This document shows, piece after piece, positions 5,487 to 60,757 of a stretch of 64,000 nucleotides of DNA. The position numbers and the translations under genes are program-made. Position 1 is the first letter of the stretch, and each line of letters opens with the position of its first letter. The notes under the pieces are model-generated. The model was not told the DNA's origin and ran no database searches. It was given only the letters and a program-made list of their open reading frames with translations. The DNA comes from the human T2T-CHM13v2.0 reference genome, Homo sapiens: NCBI GenBank assembly GCA_009914755.4, contig CP068257.2, positions 43,104,001 through 43,168,000 of the forward strand. Reading direction: 5' to 3'.

Positions 5487-6229
5487 ACGAGAAGAGTGAA
5501 ATTTGAGTAACTGCAAGGAAAGGCCAAGAATCCCACAGTCAGCTCACGGCCTTGGACGTGGCTCACAGACAGGCAGGGGGAGACTTCGCAGGCTTCAGAG
5601 GGTGTCAGGGACCAGGACCCTGGAAGCAAAGGTTGGGAGCAAGGAAGCAGCGCGACCCCTCACACCCCACCTGGAGGCCTGGGTCGGGCCTGGGCGCCGG
5701 CACAGAGCTGGTGAACAGACATCCTTGGGGGAGCTCCCGCTGCAAGCACTGCGGCTGCCCAGGCAGGTCGGGGGAGACCCGGGTTCGGCTTCTTTCCAGA
5801 CCTCGCAGTATTTCTGTGCCCTCACCTGGCTGTGAGCCACAGGTTCAGAGAGAGGCCAGGATTGGGGCAAGGGAGCCCAAGGAGAAGGCCGGATCCCCTC
5901 ACGGGGGTGGCCCTGGATTCCTTGGCTGGGCAGAGCGTCACTGGGGATCTCCAGACAAGGGACACAGGCTTTGATTAAGGGGCCCCAGCGAGGATGTCTG
6001 TTCACCAGCTCCATGTCGGCGCCTTGGGCCCACCGAGGCCTCCAGGTGGGGTGTGAGGGGTGGCGCTGCTTCCTTGCTCCTAACCTTTGCTTCCAGGGTC
6101 CAGGTCCCTGACACCCTCTGAAGCCGGCGAGGTCTCCCCGTCCCTGCCTGTGGGCCACGTCCAAGGCTGTGAGCTGACTGCGGAATTCTTGGCCTTTCCT
6201 TGCAGTTACTCAAATTTCACTCCTTCTGG
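5487..6229. repeat. Inverted duplication: arms ~5487-5728 and ~5988-6229 (about 90% identical reverse complements), ~260-bp spacer
   Basis: Near-identical ORF translations on opposite strands (5503-5835+ vs 5938-6213-; 5321-5629- vs 6087-...+). Arm junctions gagctggtgaacagacatcc / ggatgtctgttcaccagctc. Confidence 0.8.
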
Positions 6230-6340: not shown

Positions 6341-6682
6341 CAGCACCCCACATGGCTGGCCTCCCCGCACCGGGCCGGCACCCCACAGTGCCAGTCACCC
6401 ACCCCACTTGGCTGGCCTCTCTACACCGGGCCGGCACCCCACAGCGCCAGTCACCCACCCCACACGGCTGGTCTCCCCGCACCGGGCTGGCACCCTGCAA
6501 CGCCAGTCACCCACCCCACGCAGCTGGCATCCCTGCACCGGGCCGGCATCCCACAACGCCAGTCACCCACCCCACGCGGCTGGCCTCCCTGCACCGGGCT
6601 GGCACCCCGCAACGCCAGTCACCCACCCCACGAAGCTGGCCTCCCCGCACCGGTGCCAGCACCCCGCCGCGCCAATCACCCA
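6341..6682. repeat. Minisatellite, ~60-bp unit x ~5.7 (CACCCACCCCACRCGGCTGGCCTCCCCGCACCGGGCCGGCACCCCACAACGCCAGT)
   Basis: Direct tandem copies are visible. The unit start cacccaccccac recurs every 60 bp. Confidence 0.85.
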
Positions 6683-7009: not shown

Positions 7010-7203
7010 CACCGGACCCCTCCACGCTGGCCCCCTGCCTCTCCATTCCCGCTTCCTCCCTGTGAACGCGCTGTCATTCCCGCTTCCTCCCTGTGAACGT
7101 GCTGTCATACCGACCCCTCCACACTGGCCCCCTGCCTCTCCATCCCCGCTTCCTCCCTGTGAATGTGCTGTCATTCCCGCTTCCTCCCTGTGAACGTGCT
7201 GTG
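7010..7203. repeat. Tandem duplication of a ~97-bp unit, each containing two 31-bp subunits (CATTCCCGCTTCCTCCCTGTGAACGTGCTGT)
   Basis: Direct sequence repetition is visible. Confidence 0.8.
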
Positions 7204-8280
7204 CCCTAAAGCCATGCTTCCTCCAAAGGCTGCACTCCATCCGCCCAGGTGATAAGAGTCGCTCAGACACTGTTGCTTATACGGCCGCACACACATCTCT
7301 AGCTGGTTTCTTGTTCCAATAATACTGGTATTTTTAAAAGCAAATTTGATTCCTTGATCCACCGTGGCTGGGTGTTTTGTAAAAGGTAGAATTAAATACC
7401 AGGTGTGTGTTAGATAATTGAACCAAGCTCACAAGGCACAGGTCAGTGAGTGTGACAATTGTCAGAGGCAGGCAGAGACCGTGATGGCCTCGGCTCTTAC
7501 AGAGAACATTCCCCAAGGGAGCAAAGCCTGGCAGGAGGCCTCCCTTGGAATTCACCGGAAACTTCAGATGCCAGTTACAGGGGAGCATCGAAACCGAGAA
7601 TGCCGCATTTATGCCCAGGCCCTCGCCCGCAGCGACCTAACCCCTTCCAGAGGCTCTGCTGGCTGGGGCTTGCACCTCTTCCCTGCAGCCGCTGGAGATC
7701 CCATGTCTGTTCCTGCACCCCGCAGGGTGAACCTTCAGAGGCCCAGCGCCAGGGTCCCTGTGCTGCTGAGAATGAAACCCGCCCTTGGGGGATGAAGTGC
7801 CTCTCCACCAGCTCCGGGGTCACAGTGTCGCTAAAACATCCGGCTGGGCTCTGCAAAACGGCGTCTTGGGGGCACAGCCTCTTCACAGCCACGGGGCCTC
7901 CCGGGAGGAGCACAGGCTTCTGGGTGTGCTCTGTCCCTGGGACCCTCAGCTCACAGGCCAGGAGGTGGGACCCCGGTGGCTGAGGAAATGGCCACACGCT
8001 CCCCATGTCCCGTGCGACTGCTATGGAAAGAGGTGATTCCCAAAAGGAAATGGGGGAGGGGGCGCCACCCAAATCAGGGAGAATGGGTGCTGTGGCCGAA
8101 TACACAAACGTGTCGCCGTAGCATCTCACAGGCCCCACATCCAAAACAGGCCCCACATCCATTGCTCCAAACCTGCTCCCGGCCCCTCGGTCCTCCCCAT
8201 GGCTCCAGCCGCCCCCTGCCCGGTGTCCCACTGGCAAGCCCTCGTCCTCCCTTTCTCCCTCCGCCCCCTCCAAGCCATTG

Positions 8281-8400
8281 GCCCATCCTGTGGATTCCAC
8301 TCCGAATCCAACTCAGATTAATCAGCACAACCTGTGGACTCCACTTTGCATCCATCTCGGATCAATCGGCCCATCCTGTGGACTCCACTCCGAATCCATC
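8281..8400. repeat. ~45-bp tandem repeat x ~3 (CCATCCTGTGGACTCCACTCCGAATCCA...)
   Basis: Direct repetition is visible. Confidence 0.7.
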
Positions 8401-8989
8401 TTGAGTGCACCTGCTGTCTCCCTCTCCATAGTGCCCCCTGGCGCCCCCGCCCCCACTTAAGCCTCCAGCCTCCCAGCCTCCCAGCCTCCTCCTCCCTCAA
8501 CCCGACTCACCAGCAAGAGGGACCCCTTGAAGACCCGAGTCCCAGCGTGCGGCTCCTCAACCTCTTCCAGTCTCTCCTCGCAGGAGGGTAAGCTCCAAAC
8601 CCCCAGGCTGCCCGACGGAGCCCACGGCACCAGACTTCTCCCCACCAGCTCTGCCCAGGAGGCCTCTGCAGGAGGCCCCGGCCCGCTGGCTCCTGGACCC
8701 CTCACCCTCTGCTCAGCCCGGCCTTTGCCTGTGATGCTCCCAGAACGACCCTTTACAGCTACTGCAGATGGGAAGCCCCCTCCCCCCCGCCCGGGGCTGT
8801 GTGGGTTCATGGGGTGTGCCCTGGGCCGCTCCTCACCGCCTGGAGCGCTGGATGCTCCCTTCATCCATTTTCACTTGTGTATCGTCCATCTCCCCAAATC
8901 CACGAGGCCCACAGCTGCCGAGCGTTTTCTCCACTGTTATCCTAGCACCAAGCACAATGCCGGCCACCTGATGGGTAGTAAATAAGTGT

Positions 8990-9105
8990 AGAGAGAAAGA
9001 GAGGGAGAGAGGGAGAAACAGGAAGGAGGGAGAGTGGGAGGGAGAGAGGAAGGAAGGGAGGGAGGGACAAAGGGAAAGAGGGGGGAAGGAAAAGGGAACT
9101 TGTAA
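8990..9105. repeat. Polypurine (GA/GGA-rich) simple repeat
   Basis: ~115 nt that is nearly all A/G on the + strand. Confidence 0.85.
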
Positions 9106-12001: not shown

Positions 12002-12102
12002 GAATACCATCTTGACCCTCTTTGTAATAATTTATTTGAGACCCTTTGAGACCACCCCCCCCCCCGTAAAAATTCAAATTACTTTTTAATTTGCAAAATT
12101 TA

Positions 12103-12468
<366 letters not shown>

Positions 12469-18190: not shown

Positions 18191-19940
18191 GTCTGGCATG
18201 CGAGGGTGGTGCAGGGGCGTGGCCGGGTAGCTCCCTGGTCCATTCCCCACCCCACTGCCCTCCAGCACCTGGTGTTCGGCATGTCACGGGCTCTGCCCTC
18301 CTCTCCTTCCCTGTCACCACCCACATCGTTGTCTATGGCAAACCCCAGCCCTGGGTTCTCAAACAGAAGCAGCCCAGTGGAAGGTTAGGCTGACTCGGTC
18401 CAGCTGAGTTCCGGGGTTGGGTCCCTGTTTGCAGGCCCATTGGCCAGCACCCCAGTCTCTGCCCGCTGGAGGCCGACAGCTCCTCACTGTGACAACCAGA
18501 AAGGTCTGCAGATGCCGCCCAGTGTGCCCAGGAGGCCAGGCAGCCCCTCGTTAGGAACCCCTGTGACAAACACAGAAGGGGACTGGGTTGGAGATCACAC
18601 TCAACTGGAGGTTACGTTTTCACATTTCTTGCTAGAAGCAACCGGAATGGATAGGCATTGGCAAGCCGATTCCAGGACCTCTGGCCAGGAAGCCCAGGGC
18701 CTGCAGCTCTCTGTCCAGCTCCCAGTGTGCTAAGAGTGGACCTTGGCCATGCCGCAACTGCCAACTTCAACCAGGAAGGGCTGCCACAGCTAGGCTCGCT
18801 ACGTACCCTTGCTAGGTAGCTAATTCAGTCTCGTCAGAGCCACCAGACACAGACTCTCGTGACCCCACGGCATCAAGGAGGGTTACGTGGCTGGTGGGGG
18901 CAGGATGAGGAGCCAACCTGTCTTCCATCCAGGGACGCAGCTCCCAGGCCCAGATGGCGACCCAGCTCCACCCAGCCCTGGGGTCTTTGTAGGCAGGCCC
19001 AGGAGTGGCCAGCTAAGGGCACGTGTTTGTCTTGCCCACGTCCCCATCAGTTCCAGGGATCAGGTTCTTGCCACATCCACCTCTCAGCAGCCCCTGTGGG
19101 AGGAGAGAGGGGTGTGCTCCAACGCTGGCTGCCTGCAGGGCTGCTCTGGGGCTGGGATGAGTAGCCTTCCCAGGTGCCCACTCTGGGCTGCTCGGGCCCT
19201 ATCTCTACCATGTACGCCCCTGGAGCCCACGAGCCGCTGGCCTCACTGCCCTGGGCTCCACCCTCCATAGCAAGTCAGGGCTGACACGACAGGACACCTG
19301 CGGAGCAGCCCAGGCACGAGGGAAGAGACAGAGACAGATGGAGAGACAGAGACCGAGAGATAGAGAACTTCACAAAAGAGCAGGCCAAATGCTTTGCTGG
19401 AACTGCTCCAAAGACGCCCCCACAGGCACACACACTCTCCTACATGTGTGCACATATCTGCACACAGGTGTGCACAAACACACATGCTTGGTGACGTGGA
19501 ACCCGAGGTCTGGGTGGGATCGGCCCCCCCGGGACATTTGGGATCGTGCTGCAGCCCCGTCCTCTGCTTTAGGAGCTCCTTCAGGTGGGAACCAGTCCAG
19601 CAGGAGAAACCCGTGAGAATCCCAAAGTCTCTTCTGCCCTTAAGCTGCAGATGTTTCATGTGGTTCCAACTCATTTAGTATATTATCCAGGATTTCAAAG
19701 ATCCATTAGCAAAGGACAACCTTCCACGTTTGTTTCCATCTGAATTGGTTCCAACGAGACAGTCCTCTGCCAGAAAGCCCCACACACGCACACAACCTGA
19801 GAACTCTTCTGGTTTCCCGCTGCTCCTCCACCAGCCCTGAGCAAACAGGAGTGCCCCGCACAGAGGCTGGGGCCATGGCAGGTGTCCAACATGCTCCCTG
19901 CCCAGCAGGGATGTGCCTGTCATGGGACGTCCAAGGGACA

Positions 19941-20800
19941 GGCACCCAGCACACCTGGGGTACCCACCACACCCGGACACCCAGCACACCCAGGACACCC
20001 AGCACACCCAGGCACCCTGCACACCCAGGCACCCAGCACACCCGGGGCACCTACACACCTGGGGCACCTACACGCCTGGGGCACCTACACACCCAAGCAC
20101 CCAGCACACCCAGGCACCGAGCACACCTGGGACACCCAGCACACCCGGGCACCCAGCACACCCAGGCACCCTGCACACCCGGGACACCCTGCACACCCGG
20201 GACACCCAGCACACCCGGGGCACCCTGCACACCCAGGCACCCAGCACACTCAGGCACCCTGCACACCCAGGACACCCAGCACACCCGGGGCACCTACACA
20301 CCCGGGGCACCTACACACCCGGGGCACCTACACACCTGGGGCACCCTGCACATCCGGGCACCCAGCACACCCAGGCACCCTGCACACCCAGGACACCCAG
20401 CACACCTGGGGCACCTACACACCCGGGGCACCTACACAACCGGGGCACCCTGCACACCCAGGCACCCAGCACACCCGGGCATCCAGCACACCCGGGGCAT
20501 CTACACACTCAGAACACCCTGCACACCCAGGCACCCAGCACACCCGGGCACCCAGCACACCCAGGCATCCAGCACACCCGGGACACCCGGCACACCCAGG
20601 CACCCGGCACACCCAGGCACCCAGCACACCCGGGGCACCTACACACCCGGGGCATCCAGCACACCCAGGACACCCTGCACACCTGGGGCACCTACACACC
20701 CAGGGCACCCAGCATACCCGGGCATCCAGCACAACTGGCACAACTGGGGCACCCGGGACACCTGGCGCACTCGGGGCACCCACACACCCAGCACATGCCG
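19941..20800. repeat. GC-rich minisatellite, 17-18-bp unit (CACCCRGGNCACCYWRCA) x ~49
   Basis: Regular tandem array. No stop codons in any of the six frames, which explains the 306-327-aa repetitive ORFs. Confidence 0.9.
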
Positions 20801-23800
20801 CCCCAGGCCCATGGAACTCGTGCTCTGATCTGAAAGTTCTCTTCAGACTCAGACTGGAATGTTGAGGATCCGAGATGGTGGCCGCCTGGTAGGGACCTGG
20901 CCCTGCGGTGGGAGGGTGAGCAGCTAGGCCCAGGACTCTCAGTGGGTGACCTCCTGGAGGGATGCCACCCAGGGTGCGGCTCCATCCACCCCACGTTGGA
21001 GGAGCTCTCCTTCGGACAGGCCTGGGTGGGAAGGCATCCAGGAGCCATGTTGCTGACTGCTGCCAAGTCTCAGGTGGCCCCGTGGCTGTGCCCTGGAGGT
21101 GGCCCCATGTCACCCTTGTGAGGACGATGCCCCCTTCCCTCCTGGCACACATGTGCCCACTGCCACCTGAAGAGCTGACCGGGGCAAGGGGCACAGCTGA
21201 GGACAAGATGTCCTGACCACAGCTCAGACATGCGCTGGGCTGGGAGGGACCGAGACAGGAGATCCTGCCCCGAGAGGTGGGCGGGGGTGGCCTCCTGGAC
21301 ACGCCCACCACAGGGAGGGCTGCTGTCTCCCGAGCTACTCCGTGTTCTCTGTGCTTTGCACACATGGTCTTTAATCCTCACCACCACTCAGGGCTGGGAT
21401 GTGACTGCCATCAAACCCATTCCCAGACCAGAAAACAAAGACCTAGACAGCTTCCCTCGCTAGCCCAGGTCATACAGCTGCTGGGGTCTGAGGAAGGCCA
21501 AGCCCCAGCAGGCTGGCCAGAGCCACCTTCAGCTGCCAGGCCCACAGCTCACCCACAGCCACTGACCAGGCAGCAGTGGGGATGCCCCACGTCAGCCTCT
21601 GCCCACAGGGCAGGACCACAGAACACATCCTGCCCTCCCTCCGACCCCCCCGCCACCCCACGCCAACTCTGCCCATGCCTATTTGGCAAGCCCCAGACAA
21701 CACTCCTGGCAATGCCAGGAGCAGCTTTCAGGTCTGTGGTCCCCACACAAAGGCACCCAGCCCCACCCAGTCACACGACAGGGTGCCACTGCAAAGCCTA
21801 AACCGGAGATAGGGCCCTGCATCATCTCCCGACCACAGAGATGGGGCTGAATGCTCTGTACTTACACACCTGAAAAACCAGTTCCTTTCACTTTGCCATC
21901 CTAGCCTCTCATGAAATTGTACTCAAAAAAGAAAGCCACAGGATGCGTTCTTGTTATCCCTATGACAAGCAACTTAGAGCAACAGCACTGCCAGCTACCA
22001 GGCTGGCCGATCTTCACCCCAGCCCCCGGGGGGTTCTGATAAGGATGTAGGGGAGTCACCTGACCAGTGCACCACCCAGCTGGGGGCAGGGCCGCAGGGC
22101 CACACTTGTGGGAGGCAGACAACATGCATGGCCACTGCAGGGGGAGGAAAATCTGGAGTCTGGAGCAGAAGGAAAGTGGCTGGGGTGTCCAGAGCACTTC
22201 CCCACTGAGCTGGTGGACAGAGGAACTTCCAGGCATGTAAGGGAGGGTGCTGAGGGCCGGGCCCTGGTGTCTCCTGGCCCCGAGTGGAAGGTGAGGCTTT
22301 GCCAAGTGCAGCAGGTGGGCTAATAAGCCTGATGGTGGGGGGACTGAGAGGACCAGACCAGGGTGCGAGAAGAGACATGAGGTGGCTGTGTCGCAAAGGC
22401 CAGCACCTGAAGCGGGGGAAGGTGGAGCAGTGGAGGCTGCCCAGCAGGCCCCTGGGTCTAGGTGGACACTGCATAGGAGGGTGCAGTGGGCCTCATGCCA
22501 CCAACCGCACCCCATGGAGGCAGAGGGGCCACAGTCCTGGAGGGTGGGGGGCCTTGCAGATTCAGCGATGCATCGGGGCACGGCGAGGACCATTTCTTGG
22601 CTGGGGCTTTGGCAAATGACCTCACCTCCCCCACCTCAACTCCTCAGAGCACGCCCTCGGACATCTCATGGCTGGGTTCACAGCCTTCAGAGGGGAAGAT
22701 GCCCGGACGTGTGAGGACTTGCCCACTTCTGGTGTCAGAGCTCGGGCCCTGGAGGTCAGGTTCCACACAGCCAGCAGCGCTCACAGTCCAGGCATGGGAA
22801 CGGGGGCACAGGAGGGGCACAAAGGTGGAGAGCCCCATCTCCCTGACGCTCCTATGGGATCCCCGAACCAGTACGCCCACCCAGCAGAGGGCAGGGCTGG
22901 GACATTCAACGGGGTGAGGCCAAGGGCAGGGGTTACAGATGTTCGCCAGGGGATGACGAAGGGCATGGGCCAGCTGCCTCGGGGGCACCAGACCTGCCTC
23001 GGGGTACCAGACAGTTGGCACTGCCCAGTGGGTGGGTTCGGTGGGTGTTGAGGCCTGGAAGGTGTGTCTGGGATGGTGAGGGGGTACAGGCTATGGCTGG
23101 CTGAGTGGTGCCGGGGTTTGGGGGAGGAAGCTGGTGTTTCCTGCCTCTGCAGGGAGGTTCACCTTGCTTTGTCCCCTCAACAAAGCCAGGCTCTCGTGAC
23201 AACGGGTCACAACCTGGACAGATCTGAGGAGCTGAACACCTCCAGCTTCCACAGGGCTCAGCCAGGACCTGGGCCCAACAGCATTCCCTCCCAGATGGGG
23301 CCACCACGCCACATCAGCACGACGAGACCTCCTCCCAGGGTGCCCCCCCCAGCCCAGGGTCCAGGCCCCAGGCCAACACCCAGAGGGGCTGGCTTTGTTC
23401 ACAGCCCCTCTCCAAACCCTGCCCCCACCCCAAGCGGCCCCGCGGTCCCCTCCAGGGCAGGGTTTCCAGAATCCACCTGTCCTTAGTGTGTTCACTGCCC
23501 CTTGGCAGCCCCGAATTTTTGTACCTGTTTCCTGTCCCCTCCTTGTGTCCAGGTAGCATCCCCAGGGCCCTCGCCTCCAGCACAAATTCCAGCCTGCAGA
23601 AACCTTGTCAGCTCAGGGGGCCACGGTGCAAGGCACGCCCAGGGGAGGGAAGCTGGGGCTGCCCTGGGGTGCCTTTCTGTGCAGCTGGAGCAGTTCCATA
23701 TCCTATGAAGAAACTGGTACAGAACAGCACTCCTCTGAAAAATTAGCAACCTCATCTACACAGAGACTGGACTGGAGAAGCCCCAGCAGGTGCAGCAATC

Positions 23801-25321
23801 CCAGAAGTGAGAGTCAGAGCTGTGGACGCCACCCTTGCTGTGGCCCAAGCAGTGAACTGGGGCCGCTAACCCCCAGGAAGGGTGAAAAGCCCCAACACCC
23901 AGAAGATGAGACCCTAGAGCTTCCCTGGCCACCCCAGCAGCCCTCCCCATCCCAGGAAGCAGACAGTTGCATGGGAAAAGCAAGGACGGCACTCAGCCAG
24001 ACAGGCAAACAACTGTGGCAAACCAGTGCCAGCAGACAAAACCCAGAAACACAGAGCAAATGAAATGGTAAAAATCACTGTCAACCCCCAAGGTTATCTG
24101 CGCAGAAAGGGTCCATACAGTGGGGACGGCCGTCCTGAGGCCCGCTGGCCGGGCTGGCCCTTGGCTGGCGTCTGGGAACTGGGATTTCCGAGGGGCTCCC
24201 TGAACCCCGCCTCACTGGGCCTGTGCTATTTGTACAAGGTGGTTTAGGCAGAACACTCACATCCCTGCTGAGAGTCTGGAATTGTAGCGCAGCCCAGGCA
24301 GAAGCTGCTCACGTGACCAGCCCCTGGGTACATCACCAGGCAGGGCATCCCCAACATCGCACACGCAGAGTCCCAGCTGCTTGCAGGGGAGTGAGGCGCA
24401 TCCTGCGTGACCCCCACCCCAGGAGAGGCCTCCAAAGCTGAGCATGGTGCCCCTGGACTCGGCCCCAGGAACCTTTCCCTTGGCCGATTTTGCTCAGTGT
24501 CCTCCCTGTGGGAAATCACAGCCGTGACTACCGTGACCTGCATGGCCTCTGTCCTCCTGGAGAATCGCCGCCCTGGGTGGTCTTGGGGACCCCAACTCAG
24601 TATCACATTAGAGTTCTTACCCATTAAAAAGAATGCTTAGTGAGAACACTGGGCAAAGGGCAGAACAGACATGCCTGGGGGCCTGTGCTGAGGCACTCGC
24701 CCAGTGCACCCCACCAGGAGCAGCCTGGGAACCAGCCCAGGGAACGAGGCGCCAGCACCTGGGGAAGCCTGGGGACCCTGCCTCACAGGATTACAAAGGA
24801 AAGCTGACCGCCAACTACCAAAACAGAAACAGCAAATCACTGACACAGGAATCTGCCTCTTTATTGACATGCTAAGTAACAAGACGCAGAGGCAGGTCTC
24901 ATCGCAACCAACCGTGACCACAGAGGACCACAGAGGAGTGATGACAGGGAGCTGTGCTTCTAAGCAACTGCAGGAGGGAAGCGCAGTCGGAACAGCCTGC
25001 TGGCTTCTAGTGGTCAAATGTGCCACTCACACAATGGCATCTGCTGAAAAAGCTGCAAAATGTCATTTATAGGTTAGTGAACACATCCGTCTCACAGACC
25101 CCAACTAACCTGAGAATTCCAGAGGAAGACCACAGAATGACAGAAGGGAGATCAGAAACAGAAGAAAACGTGCCAGAGCTAACCCAAGTCTGCAGAAAAG
25201 CCCCCGCCGTGAGGAATCCCAGCTGGGATGATCTGGTGTGCTCCCTGGGGGCAGTGGCCACAGGCTCCTCTGACAATACGACAAAGGGACACACACTGCA
25301 GGGCAGGGAAAACACAGAACT

Positions 25322-25403: not shown

Positions 25404-25934
<531 letters not shown>

Positions 25935-26675: not shown

Positions 26676-26973
<298 letters not shown>

Positions 26974-27746: not shown

Positions 27747-29803
27747 CTGAAAGAAAAGGGAACACCCTCCATGTAAAAGGGAGTCTTATACGTAAGCAGC
27801 CTGGCAAGGTCTCCCATTTATTTAAAACACTGGCGGGGGCTTTCAAGAGCTGTGTCCCAGAAACAAAGAACCTGAGAACTGCATGGGGTCGGCCCCACCT
27901 CTAGAGTGCTGGCCACGCAGGTCTCAACGAAAGCCACTCTCATGACTCCTGCGTTCTGAGTGTCTGAAGACACCAGGACAAGTTGTCATCTGTCTTGCTG
28001 TGGAACATGCGACAACCACCTAAGCACAGGCCCACACGGCCTCCCACAGCAGCCTCCTGGGCCACTGCACTTCTGGCACCCGGACAAGCTACACGGGGAC
28101 CACCTGCTGCTTATTTCACCTTTCTCAAGACACTCTGCAGTGTGGCTTCTCTCTCACAGAGCGCCCTCTCAGCAAAACTGCCCCTCACAGCTCCTACCAA
28201 GACAATCCCAAGCAAATGTGCAGCCTAAGGTAGACACCTGACCCCAGGATACCTGACCCACCCCCTAGCCAGCGGCACTGGCAGTCACTGCAGAACTGCA
28301 GTTAGGAGGCACGGAGGGAGTAGCCAGGGCCTGCCGGAAGGCAGAACGGAGAGAGACCACCAGAACTGGATGACATGTGCTGAGGCAGCAGCTGTGCAGT
28401 GCGGCGGTGGCGCTGCTCAGAATGCACGTGGGGACCGGTTCAGAGCAGAGTTGATGAGGATAAAACCCACAGCTGACATCTGAGGACAGCCTGAGCCACT
28501 GCCTCCCTCCCAATCTCCAATCCCCTGGCCTGGCTCCCTCCACTCAGCACATGAAGAGGGTTCACGCCTCAGCCCTCTCAGGATACACACTCGCGTCACA
28601 GGCCCTGACCTCACATCCCTCTAGACCCCACTCCACGGCACCCAAAGGCTCTGCAGAGAATAGCTGAGTGGCCTCACTCTGGCATCGACCCCTGGCCCTC
28701 TGCTGGGTCTGCTCTTTCCTTTCGGACTTGCCGCCTTCCTTTCCCACACCCTTCCTCCTGACTGCCCTGGAAGACCCCTCCCTGCTATGCTGTCACCCTC
28801 CGTCCTACTCCATCACCTACTGCCTCATCCAGAAATGACCCCACATCTTCACTCTCATGTCTGACCCCCTTTTGTGGATGGAGGCCCCTTGTCCCACACA
28901 CCTCAAACTATTCCCCAAATCCTGCTGTCTCCTGAACCCAGAGCAGCACCTCTGGTAGACAAAGAACCAGGAGTCCCAGAGCCTGTACCTTCAAGGTCTC
29001 CCAAACCCACCCCTTCCTCTTAGCCCTGGGACCACTCAGCCCTTCTCTTTTCTCTCCAGGCTACTGCAACACCACGATGTCTCTGTTTGTCTTCCATCAC
29101 ACTATTGGTTACTGCTGCAAGGATGGCCCTTCGAAGGCACAGCTCACAGGACATCACACCCCCAACTCCAATCCCCAGGGTCTGCTGGGGCTCCTCTCCC
29201 TGCAGCCTTGGCTCCAGCCAAAATGAGCTGGCAGTGCCCCCATCAAGTCAGCCACCTCCTGCCTCTGGGCCTCAGCCCAGGCTGCTTCCTTTGCCCCAAA
29301 ACCCCATTCCCTCCCTCCTACCTCATCAACACCTACATGTCCTAAACACACCCCAGACAGCCCCACCAGGAAGTGGCCCGAGAGTCCCTGCATGTGTCTG
29401 ATCTTAGGGTGCATCCCACTGGCCTCTAACTGCTGGTAGGCTTGGACAGTTCCCTAGAACGTAGGAACAAAGAGTTGGGGTCTTTGTCACACGAAGCTTT
29501 ACACCCCCAGTCCAGTGTGTGGCATGTAGTGGGTCCTCAATAAACACCTACTGAGGGAAAAAGACGATCAAGGACCAGAGACCAGTTAATTATGGCCGAC
29601 AATACAATATACAACCCCAGGCTATGCTAGAAGGTATGCTTACAATTGGAAAAGTGTAGGCAGATAACATTAAATGGCAATAGCATGTGTAAACTAACTG
29701 CAAATGAGGAAAAGGACATTCTAAAGACAGGATGACGCAAGGCTGGAGAACACCTGCAGCCTGGGTGTCCACGGCAGCTCCTGCCAGGAGGCTCGGGCCT
29801 TAC

Positions 29804-29944
29804 CTGCCAGCATGCTCACCACCGACAGCAGGATCTTCTCCACACTCTGCACAGGACTCCACCGCTCCGCGCTGCTCTCGTAGCCCATGGGGTCATCGCC
29901 TGGCGCGTGGAGGATGGAAATGCAGACTCTCCCATCAGGGTAGA
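29804..29944 (-). CDS. UBE2G2: UBE2G2 exon 5 CDS: (I)[46 protein letters not shown](E). Catalytic Cys codon at 29922-29924.
   Basis: Exact match to UBE2G2 residues 82-128. Acceptor cccttgcag|TC, donor CAG|gtaagg. Confidence 0.95.
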
Positions 29945-32806
29945 CTGCAAGGGTCAGAGGCAGCCAAGTGAGCCCAGGAATGGTGCCCGAGGCATCGCCG
30001 CGCTTGGGCAGGCTCCACAGATAATGAGAACAAAGACTGCAGACACAGCAACCAAGCTGTTTGCACAGCTGGGGCATAGCCTGGGGCCCTGAGTGTCACG
30101 CTTCATGTCTGCAGGAATCCCGGTGGGGCCTGCTCACTCACTGACAGGCTCCAGGCTGACCCAGCCAGTTCTAATCAGCTGTCGTAGTCTAATCCACTTT
30201 CATATGAATTTTTTTCAAGCAATATATACAAAAAGACTAAATGAAAGGTTATCTGGCAAATATTTTATCAAAATATCTAATGTGATTAGGATTATTTACA
30301 ATACTTTTCAGAGCTAGTTCCTTAGCTATTTCTAATTCTATCATTAAATCCCTGAACCGGTCTGTGTAAAATATATGTTCACATGGCTATGATAAAGGCA
30401 ACTGGAATTATGTAAATATCTACAAAAAGAAAGGCACCAGGATTTCTCTTGGTAGCTTACTCTAATAATAAGTAAATTATCATCAGTACAACCTGGAATG
30501 TAGGTCAATGTGTCTAAATCAAATCCCTTTCCACCAAATATCATCATTAAAAAGATACACAAGGTCTGATAAAGAGAAATAAATTTTCAATTCACAGCAT
30601 TTAATCAGTCCTCTTTTACATATAATTGGGAGGAATTCTCAGATGGCTCCATATATACTCAGATATGCAGTAATCCATCTAGATAGACTCAACTGTAAAA
30701 TTATAAAGCCATTAAAGTTATAATAATAGAAATAGCAATTTTAAAATACATTTATTTAACTCACCTGAGTTAATAAGCTCTGAATTTCATGAAAATTCAC
30801 AAATGTGAATGGCGATCACTTACCTTCAAACAGTCTTGTCTTTCATACCTGGTCCTATGTGTTTCCACTCATCCATTGTTTCAGTGGTGAACGTTCAGTG
30901 GTGAACGCTCTACTATCCAGGAACTGAACCACAACTTCTCATTCAAGGAGAGTGGAAGAAACTAGATGCATACTTGCCCTGGACATCAGGCTGTCCACCT
31001 AAGATCCACATCCACAAAATCAGGAAGTTTCCCACTTCTGTGTTGCCTTCTCCAGGAGTTGGTCCCATAGGGTGACACTGCATCCACAGAAGCATCAAAA
31101 GCACCTGTGTCCCTGCCACAGCCCCTCCTTCACCAAGTCCCAGCAGTGCCATGTCCTAAACCTCTCGTGGATCCACACACATCTCTTTATCTTTAGTGCC
31201 CACATTTAGTTCCCAAGTTGCCGGTGTCTCTACCCTAGACCACTACAGCCGAGGGCCTGCCTGGCTTCCTCCCACCTGTCCTTTGCACTGTACCCAGAGC
31301 GAGCCGTCAGAGATCATTCTGGTCATGCCACTCCCTTGGAGTCTTTCAATGGAGTTCCGCCACTCCCAGGAGAAAACATCAAAACCTTCAGTATTGACCA
31401 AAAGGCCTGAGGTAGTTTGGCCCCGGCCTTCCTCTCCCGTCACTTCCTGCGCTGGGCCTTTGCACATGTGAAGGGCCCCTCCTCCCCGAATCACTCAGGT
31501 AACTCCTGCTTCACTCCCTACAGATGGTCCATCCAACCACCACCTCTGCAAGGTGCTGCCCAGAACTTCCTGATGTGACTTTGCGTTTTGTTTGTGTGAT
31601 TCTCCTATCAATGTCCATCCCTGTCCTTGGAATATAAGCTCCTGAAGGTCTGCTATTATTTGCTCACCACTGTATACCAGCAACTTTCAGTACGTGTGTT
31701 GAATTGTTTTTAAAGTATTTATTGACTAGTTTTTATGATATTGGTAGACCTATAGTTCTCAAAGATAATTTTTAAAAAATCAAAATAATCCAATTACAGT
31801 AAGGCAAAAATTTATATTATCTGAGCATTAAAAATAATTACCAGAACATTAAAAATAATAATCAGACCACCTGTAGTACATAGTCACATAAGGTAATCAG
31901 TTTATTGGTCATATTTGTCACTAATGCCATGTCACAGGTATTGTTCTGAATAATATATTTCTCCTCAATACAATCTTAGTATTTTAATTACCTACAATCC
32001 TCTTCATAGTTGCATTTTATAGCTAACCAATTTGAAACTACTTCAATTACTCTTACCTATCAATTGTATTTTTTAACTTTTTATTATGGAGAATTCCAAA
32101 AACACACTCAAGTAGACAGCGTGTGATGAACCTCCATGTTATCATCTAACTCAGGCGCATGGCCAGTCTCCCTGAAAGAAGGCACGCTTCTGAGCATCCC
32201 CTGTGCACACAAGACTGAAGCAGCTTTGAGATAAGAAAAGAAGTACCAAATGGTCTCTCTCAGGCAGCCGCCCACTACCTATGTGTACCAATATCTGCAG
32301 TAAATGAGAAGTCCTAAACGAGGGTTAGGACAGCAAGTCTATTGGCAGACGGCATTTCCACCAGTGAAGTGGCCGGGGGTGGGGGGGTAGTCCTGAAAAC
32401 CCCTATGGCAAAGATGTAAAAGGAAGAATGTAAAAGGAAAAAATAAAAACTACAGCTGTTCAGAAATTCCAATTCCTACTACTGGACACATTTTCAAATA
32501 AGCTACAGTACAATTCACTTAAATGACCTTATTTTTTTCCTCCTTTTAAAATTAATATATATTAATTTTAGGGCAAAAAAAGATTTACAAAAAGGAAAAA
32601 AAATTTCAATCCGAAAAAAGAATCACTTTTAACATTTTTGTGCTTACTTCTCCAGTTATATATACATTTACATGTGAATTTCTTTTTCAAGAGGAAATTA
32701 TAACAGTGCTACTGCTTTTCCCAGTCAATATAACACAAATACTACTTTGTATCATTGATTCTTCTTTTAGATCATTTAAAAAATCTACATCACATTCTAA
32801 CATATA

Positions 32807-33674: not shown

Positions 33675-33769
33675 CTAGAAGATATAAAATACGTAGACTG
33701 AACTTCAAAGTACATTTTTCAACGTCGACCACAATTGACAAATGGGTTAAGAACATTTTTACCACTTTA

Positions 33770-34117
<348 letters not shown>

Positions 34118-51247: not shown

Positions 51248-51985
<738 letters not shown>

Positions 51986-57699: not shown

Positions 57700-58900
57700 A
57701 CAAGCCCGCAAAGACTCAACTGTGTGTGCTCTCAACTAACACGGCGCCGGCGCTGCCTTTACTGATGCTGGGAAGGCTTCTCTTCACGACTTCACGCGTG
57801 AGAGTGGGCAGCGGGCGCAGGGCGCGGCACTCCGCGGGACCCACAGGGGGGCTCACGGTGGAGGCCCCGGGCCCGGCTCCCCCGCCAGGCTCCCTGCCCC
57901 AGCCCCGCCGGACGACGCGGGCCCGGGAGCAGGAACGCGGGACGCTGCTGACGGCCCGGGTCCCCAGACTCACGTTTGTACTCGGCCATCAGCCTCTTGA
58001 GCGCGGTCCCCGCCATGGCCCCGCAACAGCTGCGCCGAGCGACCTCGCCTCAGCCGCGCGCGTGCCTCCTGCCCCGACACCGGGGACTGCTTCCGGGCCA
58101 CCGTCGCGGGCCCAGGAACTCTTCCGGGGCGTGGCGCGTGCGCGATCGCCGAGGCGCGCTGTCCGGGTGGTGGGAGCTCAACCCGCGACCGCGGCTACGG
58201 TTCTCTTGGCTCCTGCCCTCGCCTTAGTCGCTCTGCGGGGTTGGTTCGGTCCCGGCACTTCCAGAGGCCTCAGGGTCCTGGTCTTGTAGAGACTTCCTGA
58301 ACGGTGGCGCCTGTTCCAGTGTGTGTGCGCTAACTGCCTGTTCTGTGCCAGCCGCGCGTGGCCGAAGGGCGGGAGGACGGGGGTTGTGGAGGGGAGGATG
58401 GAGGTTGGGGAGACAGGGCGGGGACGAGATAAGAGGTCGGGGGGTGGGGAGGATGGTCGCGGGGCGGTCTGGGGCTGGAGACAAGGGGCCTGAGGTGCGG
58501 GTACGCACTGAACATTCCAACCGTCCCCAGCCGGCCGGGTTTCAGGTTTGAAAAGGTGGGAAGGTTAGCTGTCCTGGCGCTTTTCCTCCACGTGTTGTGC
58601 GGCTCCGCTGGAGTTCGGGTCCAGCACCTTCTACTCCGAGGGAGAGAGCCGCGGGGAGAGCCCTGTTCGGGCCCGCGGCTCGAACTGACCGCCGGCTCTG
58701 CCGAGCAGCCTCGACCCCAGGGCACCCCCGGGAGAGAGGGCGCGGCTCAGGTCCCTGCCCGAACCCCTGGGGTGCTGAGAGACTCCCCAGCGCCCCGCGT
58801 GGGCTCCCGGCCTCTCCACAGTTGAGGATCCTGTAAGGGGCGAGCCCTTTTTCCCATAATGGCTGTAGTGAGTGGGTGTGCTTTCCCGATTGACCCGCTG
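57700..58900 (-). promoter_or_regulatory. UBE2G2: CpG-island promoter/5'UTR of UBE2G2, with CCGGAAG (ETS/GABP-type) motifs at ~58090 and ~58120 on the minus strand and no TATA box
   Basis: Very high CpG density from ~57730 to ~58870. The UBE2G2 ATG at 58016 lies within it. Confidence 0.75.
57974..58016 (-). CDS. UBE2G2: UBE2G2 exon 1 CDS: MAGTALKRLMAEYK(Q), ATG at 58016
   Basis: Reverse complement atggcggggaccgcgctcaagaggctgatggccgagtacaaac|gtgagt. Exact N-terminus of UBE2G2. Confidence 0.95.
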
Positions 58901-60757
58901 TGAGGTGAGCGATTTTAACCCACATCCTTACTGACTTCACAGCACAGTAGGTGCTTCGTGGCTGTCCGGTGCAAGGATGTATATACACACACACCTTTGC
59001 AAAAAAAGTTTGCATCTCTTGCCTGGCTGTTTGTTGCAATAATCTATCATTTGTCTTTTCCTTTCCAGCATTGCAGATGATCCCTTGAAAAGAAGTCTGA
59101 TCACATTCACACTCTGCTCCGCCCATTTCACTCAGTAAAGCTGAAGTCCTGCAGTGCTTTGCTCTGCCTCCGGTCACCCCGCCATACTCCCAGACCCTCC
59201 CTCCCTCTCACTCCACTCCAGCTGCCCTGGCCTGGTTCAGAGTCCCTGACTCTTCCCTCCCCGGAAACACTTTCTGGCGGCTCTTGTCCCCGACTCTTCC
59301 CACCTGCTCTTTCAGTCTTTGCTCAAATGTTGCCTCTTCAGTGTGGCCTAGGCCGTCACCACCCGGCCTTCACCGCATACCTTTTTCTCTGCAACACCTA
59401 CTCAACACACCGTACTATAGAACTTACTGGCATGCTATAAATGTATTACCCTTATCTGTTGCCTCTAACCAAAAGCGTGTTCCATGAGAGCCATGGGTCC
59501 CTGCCTACTTCTGTCTTGTTTCTGGGGCAGCCTCTGTACCTGGACATCGTATACTCTTAACACGGATTTGTCAAATCAAATGAAATTTAACAATACAAAC
59601 TTCACAAGTATGCATAGTGTAGGAAAATTCCCCAAAATTCAAAATTTCAGTCTACCTCCATCTTTTCAAATGACCACAGTGCTTTATAAAATGACATGGT
59701 CCTTTGAGACTGTTTCAGAGAGTAATTTGTGCAAATGCAATGTGCAAAAAGTCACAGTGGAGGTGTTTCCTCCCCCATTCAAGAGCTGCTCTCTCTCTAA
59801 TCAGACAGCACCCCACACCCCAAGGCAGTCTGTCCAGTGCTCCTAAAGGAGAGCAGCTCCCCTTTTCCAGTTATGGGAGATGTGGGCAATAAAGCATTAC
59901 TGTCAATGCCGTGATGTTCACTGCAACATATGCTTGATGTTTTCATAATTTTATCCATCTTTTTCAGACATCTTACTGCAGAACACTGTATGTTTTCCAA
60001 TTATTATTTTTCAGAAATGTGGTTTACAGCTTCTATCAGGATTAGCTTCAGCTTCAAGTGACAAAAGTCACTTGAAATATGAGTTGCTGAAACAAGATGG
60101 CAGTCTCTCCCCTCAACAGGACTGTTACAACACCTTATCTTCAGAGAACCAGGCTCTCTGCAACATTTCAGGGACGTCGTTCAGTACCTTATGTGGAATT
60201 CAAGCTTAGCTGGGCATCCTATGTTTTAACTGGCTAACTCGTGGAACTCTCAACTTGGATCAAGTGGTAGTGGAGTCCCAGGGACTCTGAGCAGCCAGTG
60301 TGTGATACTGCAGGGCAGCACACCCTGGGGAGGCCAACTGTACAGAATAAAATTAATGCTTTCTATCTTTAGCAACTAAAGTTCTGAAATATAAAAAGGA
60401 CCTCACAGCTTAACCCATGTTATACGGTGGGGTTTTCCCATGAACATCACGCGTTTCCAGCTGGGCACTCCTGCAGCATGGCTAAGATGACAACTCAAGT
60501 TCCCTGGGAGTGGGGGTTCCTGGGATGTGAACCTTTCGGTGCAAAAACTGGAGAAGTTCCAGTTGGGACCCCAGGCATAGATACTAGGATAAATAGGGCC
60601 TCTCTCCTCCAGGAGCATCAATTTAACCCAAAGATTCTTGGAGTCAGTTTCACATAAGTAATCTTGTTGAAAATAGTAATCCCAACAGATCTATTTTTCC
60701 AAATGCACCATTTGCATAAATCTCAGAAAAAAGACAACTTCAAGAACATACCTTTGC

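What the first reader, a model, noticed from the sequence alone, without database searches (positions are those of the whole stretch)
19941..20800. 860-bp GC-rich minisatellite (17-18-bp unit x ~49) open in all six frames, with regular G-triplets on the complement
The highly regular array CACCCRGGNCACCYWRCA generates 300+ aa pseudo-ORFs in every frame (Pro/His/Thr-rich on +, Cys/Gly/Val-rich on -). None has a credible start or context, and there is no intron-exon structure. The complementary strand carries GGG every 8-9 nt (..GGGTGTGCTGGGTGCCTGGGTG..), so it is a strong G-quadruplex candidate. Arrays like this in 21q22.3 are usually length-polymorphic VNTRs and recombination- or mutation-prone.
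Basis: seen in the sequence. Interest (0 to 1): 0.5.

Follow-up and report, generated by a model that had tools for sequence, protein, structure and literature searches.

The report
Ordinary GC-rich minisatellite downstream of UBE2G2
This is a real but ordinary non-coding tandem repeat (about 48 copies of a 17-18-base unit) lying about 4 kb past the end of the human UBE2G2 gene, of the GC-rich kind that crowds chromosome ends; its "open reading frames" are a by-product of base composition and its G-quadruplex potential is only borderline.

Summary
The array is real. Tandem Repeats Finder gives 19941-20733, period 17, 45.8 copies, 81% matches, score 820. A unit-by-unit alignment gives 48 full units (28 of 17 nt, 19 of 18 nt, 1 of 16 nt) over 19941-20789, at 69.7% G+C.

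- The array is open in only the three + frames. The minus strand has 13 stops inside it (11 TAG, 2 TGA).
- It is not a strong G-quadruplex candidate. Ten regex motifs exist, but every loop is 5-6 nt. G4Hunter scores are 0.66-1.21, and a thermodynamic model gains at most 0.4 kcal/mol from G4.

It is not coding. Unit lengths are mostly not multiples of three and vary, and there is no protein homologue or Pfam match. It is not a CpG island (CpG o/e 0.29); the main unit variants (CCCGGG, CCCAGG, CCTGGG) are CpG decay.

The window carries all six UBE2G2 coding exons on the minus strand, which supports 21q22.3. The array lies about 4 kb beyond the gene's AATAAA.

Best reading: a neutral subtelomeric GC-rich minisatellite that grows by slippage or unequal exchange. 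Length polymorphism is likely from general knowledge but could not be tested here. Low interest.

The parts
19941..20789 (.). The whole minisatellite. It has 48 full units (19943-20776) plus partial units at both ends. The consensus on the + strand is CACCCAGCACACCC(G)GG(G/A). Each unit is itself a diverged dimer of an 8-9-nt CACCCRGN motif.
   Evidence: TRF rows for periods 17, 9, 52 and 69; unit-by-unit alignment; column composition and unit types
20723..20789 (.). Degenerate 3' tail of the array (units 47-50: CATCCAGCACAACTGGCA, CAACTGGGGCACCCGGGA, CACCTGGCGCACTCGGGG, CACCCACACACCC). These are older, decayed edge units.
   Evidence: TRF row 20720-20786, period 27, 76% matches
20219..20669 (.). 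Higher-order blocks. The 140-nt stretch 20219-20358 recurs at 20340-20479 (88% identity, offset 121 nt = 7 units) and at 20530-20669 (83%). The unit-type order T-A-Y-Y(-Y) recurs at units 6, 20 and 27. This is the signature of multi-unit duplication.
   Evidence: unit-type string; TRF rows for periods 52 and 69
19980..20631 (-). Ten non-overlapping G3-N(5-6)-G3-N(5-6)-G3-N(5-6)-G3 motifs on the minus strand. They lie at 19980-20009, 20015-20043, 20144-20171, 20178-20207, 20214-20242, 20257-20286, 20370-20398, 20448-20476, 20534-20562 and 20603-20631. Their G4Hunter scores are 0.66-1.21.

Best explanation
The feature is a non-coding, intergenic, GC-rich minisatellite of the subtelomeric human type. 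It lies about 4 kb beyond the poly(A) signal of UBE2G2, which is transcribed from the minus strand.

Inferred history:
- An 8-9-nt CACCCGGN motif doubled into a 17-18-nt unit.
- That unit was amplified to about 48 copies by replication slippage and/or unequal exchange or gene conversion.
- Later duplications copied blocks of 3-7 units.
- The array is presumably methylated in the germ line. Its one CpG per unit decays by deamination, giving the CCCGGG / CCCAGG / CCTGGG variants.

The long + strand ORFs exist only because that strand has 5% T and none of the few T contexts makes a stop codon. No gene product and no sequence-specific function is implied.

By analogy with its class it is probably length-polymorphic in people. 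This is an inference and was not shown here.
For: Shown:
- Tandem structure and unit map.
- The motif is confined to this locus within the window, and the flanks are unique in the window.
- Higher-order blocks at 88% and 83% identity at 7-unit offsets.
- At the unit's CpG site the counts are CCCGGG 17, CCCAGG 16 and CCTGGG 7. CpG o/e is 0.29, the same as the flanking kilobases.
- Every T lies in a CTAC, CTGG, CTGC, ATCC or similar context, none of which gives a + strand stop. The complement gives 11 TAG and 2 TGA.
- Unit lengths of 17, 18 and 16 nt shift the reading frame at most units.
- No protein homologue among 5.8 billion clusters, no Pfam family, and no called gene with these products.
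- All UBE2G2 exons lie on the minus strand, and AATAAA is at 24865-24860.

From the literature:
- VNTRs with more than 60% GC and units longer than 15 bp are 21-fold enriched within 5 Mb of chromosome ends (PMC7608644).
- VNTR mutation rate rises with allele size (bioRxiv 10.64898/2026.03.06.710071).

From my own memory: UBE2G2 lies roughly 2 Mb from 21qter.
Against: - Length polymorphism, germ-line methylation and the slippage/exchange mechanism are inferred, not observed.
- No second allele or primate orthologue could be fetched.
- Mononucleotide shuffles give a mean of 7.6 + strand stops and never 0. Taken naively this looks like avoidance of stops. But the 48 units are copies of only a few variant types, so they are not independent trials.
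- Transcript evidence could not be consulted, so a non-coding RNA overlapping the array is not excluded.
Confidence: 0.85

Rival explanations
1. The array is a G-quadruplex-forming minisatellite of the CEB1/CEB25 type. The G-run (minus) strand folds into G4 during replication or transcription, and this drives instability or pausing.
For: - There are 10 non-overlapping G3+ motifs with loops of 7 nt or less in the array, out of 20 on that strand in the whole window.
- In the G4Hunter paper, the G3 / loop 1-7 regex had very few false positives on its test set (PMC4770238).
- GC skew is 0.37 towards G on the minus strand.
Against: - Per-motif G4Hunter scores are 0.66-1.21, and no 25-nt window exceeds 1.2. 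The paper gives 1.2 as the permissive threshold and 1.5 for stable G4.
- All loops are 5-6 nt, and many contain CC or CCC that can pair with the G-runs.
- In yeast, only G4s with short (3 nt or less) pyrimidine loops destabilised minisatellites (PMC5491262, citing Piazza 2015).
- ViennaRNA with DNA parameters and G4 terms gains at most 0.4 kcal/mol. The single strands fold no better than shuffles (z from -0.8 to +1.0).
Confidence: 0.12
2. The array is a cis-regulatory VNTR. Either it is a dense cluster of CACCC-type boxes (KLF/SP family) whose copy number tunes nearby genes such as UBE2G2 or SUMO3, or it is a G-skewed R-loop or pause element for transcription that reads through the UBE2G2 poly(A) site.
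For: - CACACCC occurs 34 times in the array (39.5 per kb against 0.35 per kb elsewhere), and CACCC 65 times.
- The G-rich strand is the sense strand for UBE2G2 read-through. GC skew is +0.37 in that sense, starting about 4.05 kb past the AATAAA.
Against: - The fuller KLF core CCMCRCCC is met only once, because the units read GCACACCC.
- CpG decay and CpG o/e of 0.29 point to a methylated region rather than one kept free of methylation.
- 4 kb is far from the poly(A) site for a termination element (my own knowledge of the terminal GC-skew literature).
- No paper links a VNTR to UBE2G2, and no locus entry was found in the VNTR-eQTL supplements that could be read.
Confidence: 0.06
3. The array is a real protein-coding repeat exon that encodes a Pro/His/Thr-rich protein on the + strand.
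For: All three + frames are open for 331-373 codons. Mononucleotide shuffles never give zero stops.
Against: - Units of 17, 18 and 16 nt change the reading frame at most units, so no peptide repeat is preserved.
- All three frames are open equally, which indicates composition rather than selection.
- No homologue, no Pfam family, and no such gene product on record.
Confidence: 0.01
4. The array is the internal tandem-repeat region of an interspersed transposable element, not a locus-specific minisatellite.
For: None directly. Some composite elements do carry GC-rich VNTRs (my own knowledge).
Against: - The unit occurs nowhere else in 64 kb.
- The 1-kb flanks match nothing else in the window.
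- No repeat-family library was available, so this was tested only weakly.
Confidence: 0.03

Closest known systems
Subtelomeric GC-rich human minisatellites / VNTRs (the class described by Vergnaud and Denoeud, and by Linthorst et al. 2020, PMC7608644)
   Same: - Unit longer than 15 bp and G+C above 60%.
- Strong strand asymmetry: one strand is C/A-rich, the other G/T-rich.
- Interspersed unit variants with higher-order blocks.
- Located in the last few Mb of a chromosome arm, with other minisatellites nearby (6344-6682, 7015-7202, 8280-8401).
   Different: Nothing structural. Copy-number variability, the property that defines a VNTR, was not observable here.
G4-forming hypervariable minisatellites CEB1 (D2S90) and CEB25 (D10S180)
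   Same: A GC-rich tandem array with several G-triplets per unit on one strand, which matches the classical G4 regex.
   Different: - Loops are 5-6 nt, against the 0-1-nt or otherwise short pyrimidine loops that drive CEB1/CEB25 instability (PMC5491262).
- G4Hunter is at most 1.21.
- C-runs sit inside the loops.
- There are no experimental data.
Coding tandem repeats (for example mucin or proline-rich protein VNTR exons)
   Same: A long stop-free, Pro/Thr-rich conceptual translation.
   Different: - Most units (17 or 16 nt) are not a multiple of 3, and unit length varies.
- All three frames are equally open.
- There is no homologue or domain.

Membership tests
Minisatellite / VNTR | Head-to-tail array of units of about 7-100 bp | tested here: met
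   TRF gives period 17, 45.8 copies, score 820. 48 full units were aligned.
Minisatellite / VNTR | Copy number varies among individuals | not testable with these tools
   No human population or long-read data are reachable. Flank and unit scans of the metagenome, prokaryote and viral collections returned no human allele. The VNTR paper supplements that could be read had no entry; three other papers had no supplements held as text.
Minisatellite / VNTR | Subtelomeric GC-rich subclass: G+C above 60%, unit longer than 15 bp, within about 5 Mb of a chromosome end | tested here: met
   G+C is 69.7% and the unit is 17-18 bp. The window holds UBE2G2. The distance to 21qter (about 2 Mb) comes from my memory of the human map and was not computed.
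G-quadruplex-forming minisatellite (CEB1/CEB25 type) | Four or more G-runs of at least 3 G with loops of 1-7 nt | tested here: met
   10 non-overlapping motifs on the minus strand.
G-quadruplex-forming minisatellite (CEB1/CEB25 type) | G4Hunter score above 1.2 (permissive) or 1.5 (stable) | tested here: not met
   Per-motif scores are 0.66-1.21, and the maximum for any 25-nt window is 1.20. Thresholds are from PMC4770238.
G-quadruplex-forming minisatellite (CEB1/CEB25 type) | Short (3 nt or less) pyrimidine loops and high thermal stability, which are linked to instability | tested here: not met
   All loops are 5-6 nt. The modelled gain from G4 is at most 0.4 kcal/mol. The criterion is from PMC5491262. 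Thermal stability itself was not measured.
Protein-coding repeat exon | Repeat period keeps the reading frame (a multiple of 3) | tested here: not met
   Unit lengths are 17 nt (28), 18 nt (19) and 16 nt (1).
Protein-coding repeat exon | Homologous proteins or a recognisable domain | tested here: not met
   No hit at E <= 0.001. No Pfam family for the three + frames, and only a sub-threshold Collagen hit (E 0.16) for the minus ORF.
Protein-coding repeat exon | Transcript, splice or peptide evidence | not testable with these tools
   No human transcript resource is available.
CpG island | CpG observed/expected above 0.6 with G+C above 50% | tested here: not met
   CpG o/e is 0.29 at 69.7% G+C. 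The flanks are 0.17-0.37.
PRDM9-motif recombination hotspot | Presence of the CCNCCNTNNCCNC 13-mer | tested here: not met
   The window has 4 matches (3.2 expected), none in or near the array. Actual recombination rate is not testable here.

The most novel reading that the evidence does not exclude
The array is more than neutral repeat DNA. One possibility is that its length alleles act in cis on UBE2G2 or SUMO3. With about 34 CACACCC boxes and a G-skewed sense strand 4 kb past the UBE2G2 poly(A) signal, it could pause or terminate read-through transcription through R-loops or weak G4s. The other possibility is that it is one of the rare hypermutable VNTRs.
Probability: 0.06. Interest if true: 0.4.

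Novelty: already known. Interest (0 to 1): 0.12.

Why it matters
It matters little. The array is one more example of the GC-rich minisatellites that crowd human chromosome ends, and any TRF-based catalogue of the reference genome would already list it. Its practical value is as a possible multi-allelic marker next to UBE2G2/SUMO3. It is also a caution: T-poor repeats give long false ORFs, and a regex G4 hit can be weak once loop length and C content are considered.

Tried and rejected
1. Protein search with the 327-aa + frame translation, hoping to find alleles or orthologues as called pseudo-proteins: 8000 word candidates, none at E <= 0.001.
2. Exact look-ups of two + frame ORFs in the assembly index: not on record.
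4. The same two-unit pattern in viral contigs gave nothing. In 185,579 prokaryote genomes it gave one hit, an (AGCACACCC)x6 micro-array in a Chloroflexia MAG. This is a chance resemblance, not a relative.
5. Literature: no paper pairs UBE2G2 with a VNTR or tandem repeat in a relevant way, and the unit sequence is printed in no paper. A search pairing 'minisatellite' with '21q22.3' gave nothing specific.
6. Supplements of VNTR catalogues were searched for UBE2G2 or estimated coordinates. Nothing was found in the two papers with held files, and no files were held for three others. The coordinates searched were my own estimate from remembered gene positions, so this negative is weak.
7. Denoeud et al. 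2003, which gives rules for predicting minisatellite polymorphism, is not held.
8. PRDM9 13-mer: absent from the array.
9. Hairpin or cruciform idea based on the 17 CCCGGG palindromes: neither strand folds better than shuffles.
10. CpG-island idea: rejected.

Full report
**What is there**

Reading 19700-21100 shows an obvious C/A-rich periodic block.
- Tandem Repeats Finder reports 19941-20733 with period 17, 45.8 copies, 81% matches and score 820. It gives alternative rows at period 9 (63% matches), 52 and 69, and a degenerate tail at 20720-20786.
- I aligned the region to a concatenated 18-nt consensus. This splits it into 48 full units (19943-20776) plus partial ends, so the array spans 19941-20789.
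- Unit lengths are 17 nt (28 units), 18 nt (19) and 16 nt (1).
- Composition over 19941-20800 is C 410, A 218, G 189, T 43. That is 69.7% G+C against 49.4% for the window.
- The 17-nt unit with up to 2 mismatches occurs 36 times, all inside the array, against 0.05 expected.

**Anatomy**

Each unit is a diverged dimer of an 8-9-nt motif: CACCCAGCA followed by CACCCRGG(N).

There are four unit types:
- A: CACCCAGCA..., 23 units.
- T: CACCCTGCA..., 10 units.
- Y: CACCTA-CACA..., 11 units.
- G: CACCCGGCA..., 4 units.

Their order along the array is AAAATAYYYAAAATTATATAYYYTATAYYTAAYTAAAGGAYATYAAGG.

The T-A-Y-Y(-Y) order recurs. A 140-nt block (20219-20358) is repeated 7 units later at 88% identity and again at 83%. 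The array therefore grew partly by duplication of multi-unit blocks, as minisatellites do through unequal exchange or slippage. This mechanism is an inference.

The main variable site is the single CpG of the unit: CCCGGG 17 times, CCCAGG 16 and CCTGGG 7. These are the two products of methyl-CpG deamination. CpG observed/expected is 0.29, no different from the flanks. It is not a CpG island and is most likely methylated in the germ line (inference).

**Open reading frames**

- The three + frames are stop-free for 331-373 codons.
- The minus frames carry 4-5 stops each inside the array, 13 in all. Eleven are TAG, the complement of CTA in Y units. Two are TGA, from CTCA variants.
- The longest minus-strand stop-free stretch inside the array is 124 codons.
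- 'Open in all six frames' is therefore wrong.

The + strand openness is compositional. All 43 T lie in contexts such as CTAC, CTGG, CTGC and ATCC that cannot start a stop codon.

Several results argue against coding:
- The mix of 17-, 18- and 16-nt units changes the frame at most units.
- All three frames are equally open.
- A search of 5.8 billion protein clusters gave nothing at E <= 0.001.
- Pfam gave nothing for the + frames.
- No gene with these products is on record.

**G-quadruplex claim**

On the complement there are 67 GGG runs, all exactly three long. 48 of 66 spacings are 8-9 nt.

The classical regex (G3+, loops 1-7) finds 10 non-overlapping motifs. All their loops are 5-6 nt, and many loops contain CC or CCC.
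- G4Hunter gives 0.66-1.21 per motif and never exceeds 1.2 in any 25-nt window. The array mean is 0.41 on the G strand.
- The G4Hunter paper treats 1.2 as a permissive threshold and 1.5 as the level for stable G4. It also notes that the G3 / loop 1-7 regex has few false positives (PMC4770238).
- Work on CEB1 and CEB25 shows that only G4s with short (3 nt or less) pyrimidine loops destabilise minisatellites (PMC5491262).
- ViennaRNA with DNA parameters and G4 terms lowers the energy of 200-nt segments by at most 0.4 kcal/mol.
- Neither strand folds better than dinucleotide shuffles (z from -0.8 to +1.0).

My verdict is that this is a borderline G4 candidate, not a strong one.

**Context**

- An ORF at 29721-30077 (minus strand) matches human UBE2G2 in the Protein Data Bank at 47 of 47 residues.
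- A canonical AATAAA lies on the minus strand at 24865-24860.
- The array therefore begins about 4.05 kb beyond the poly(A) signal and about 6.8 kb beyond the stop codon. On the evidence available it is intergenic.
That UBE2G2 maps there, roughly 2 Mb from the telomere, is my own knowledge.
- The window is primate: an Alu is detected as an SRP-like hit at 26691-26838.
- Other C-rich minisatellites sit at 6-8.4 kb.
- VNTRs with more than 60% GC and units longer than 15 bp are 21-fold enriched in the last 5 Mb of chromosome arms (PMC7608644). This array fits that class exactly.

**Explanation and rivals**

Best explanation (confidence 0.85): a neutral, non-coding subtelomeric minisatellite. It evolves by slippage or unequal exchange, with CpG decay.

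It is probably length-polymorphic, because long, fairly homogeneous arrays of this class usually are and because mutation rate rises with allele size. This was not testable here.

Rivals:
- A G4-driven unstable element (0.12).
- A cis-regulatory or R-loop element. CACACCC is 39.5 per kb in the array against 0.35 per kb elsewhere, and the G-rich strand is the sense strand for UBE2G2 read-through with skew +0.37. Against this, the fuller KLF core is met only once and the CpG decay argues for methylation (0.06).
- The internal repeat of a transposable element (0.03).
- A coding exon (0.01).

**Related sequences elsewhere**

None were obtained.
- Scans of the metagenome, viral and prokaryote collections gave nothing, apart from a chance (AGCACACCC)x6 in a Chloroflexia MAG.
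- Literature and supplement searches found no description of this specific locus.

**Verdict**

The feature is an ordinary member of a well-known class in the human reference genome. Interest is low (0.12).

Noticed in passing
window 5494-5737 and 5979-6222: An inverted repeat with 244-nt arms, 90% complementary, and a 241-nt spacer, in a GC-rich block. I first noticed it because ORFs on opposite strands encode the same peptide (MDVAHRQ...GFRGCQGPGPWKQRLGARKQR).
   Followed up: partly
window 6344-6682, 7015-7202, 8280-8401, 8990-9098: A cluster of other tandem repeats: 56 bp x6 (86% matches, C-rich), 97 bp x1.9 (also read as 31 bp x5), 44 bp x2.8, and a GA-rich tract. The region is dense in minisatellites, as expected near a chromosome end.
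   Followed up: no
window 27637-58016, minus strand: The complete coding region of UBE2G2 in six exons (about 58016, 44374-44318, 44232-about 44180, 33673-33557, 29945-29805, about 27750-27637). An AATAAA lies at 24865-24860 on the minus strand, and a GC-rich promoter region at 58-59 kb.
   Followed up: yes
window 8001-9000, 23001-24000, 58001-59000: G4Hunter windows scoring 1.5 or more concentrate in these three kilobases (7-9% of windows), including the UBE2G2 promoter. None are in the minisatellite.
   Followed up: no
window 26691-26838, minus strand: An Alu element inside the UBE2G2 3' UTR region, detected as an Rfam Metazoa_SRP hit (72.6 bits). Alu-like conceptual translations also appear at about 12100-12456, 25416-25820, 33767-34108 and 51521-51985.
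   Followed up: no
L001 2560-2613 (Chloroflexia MAG contig CAWHHU010000004.1): A short (AGCACACCC)x6 tandem repeat. It is the only match to the two-unit pattern in 185,579 prokaryote genomes and is a chance resemblance to the human unit.
   Followed up: yes
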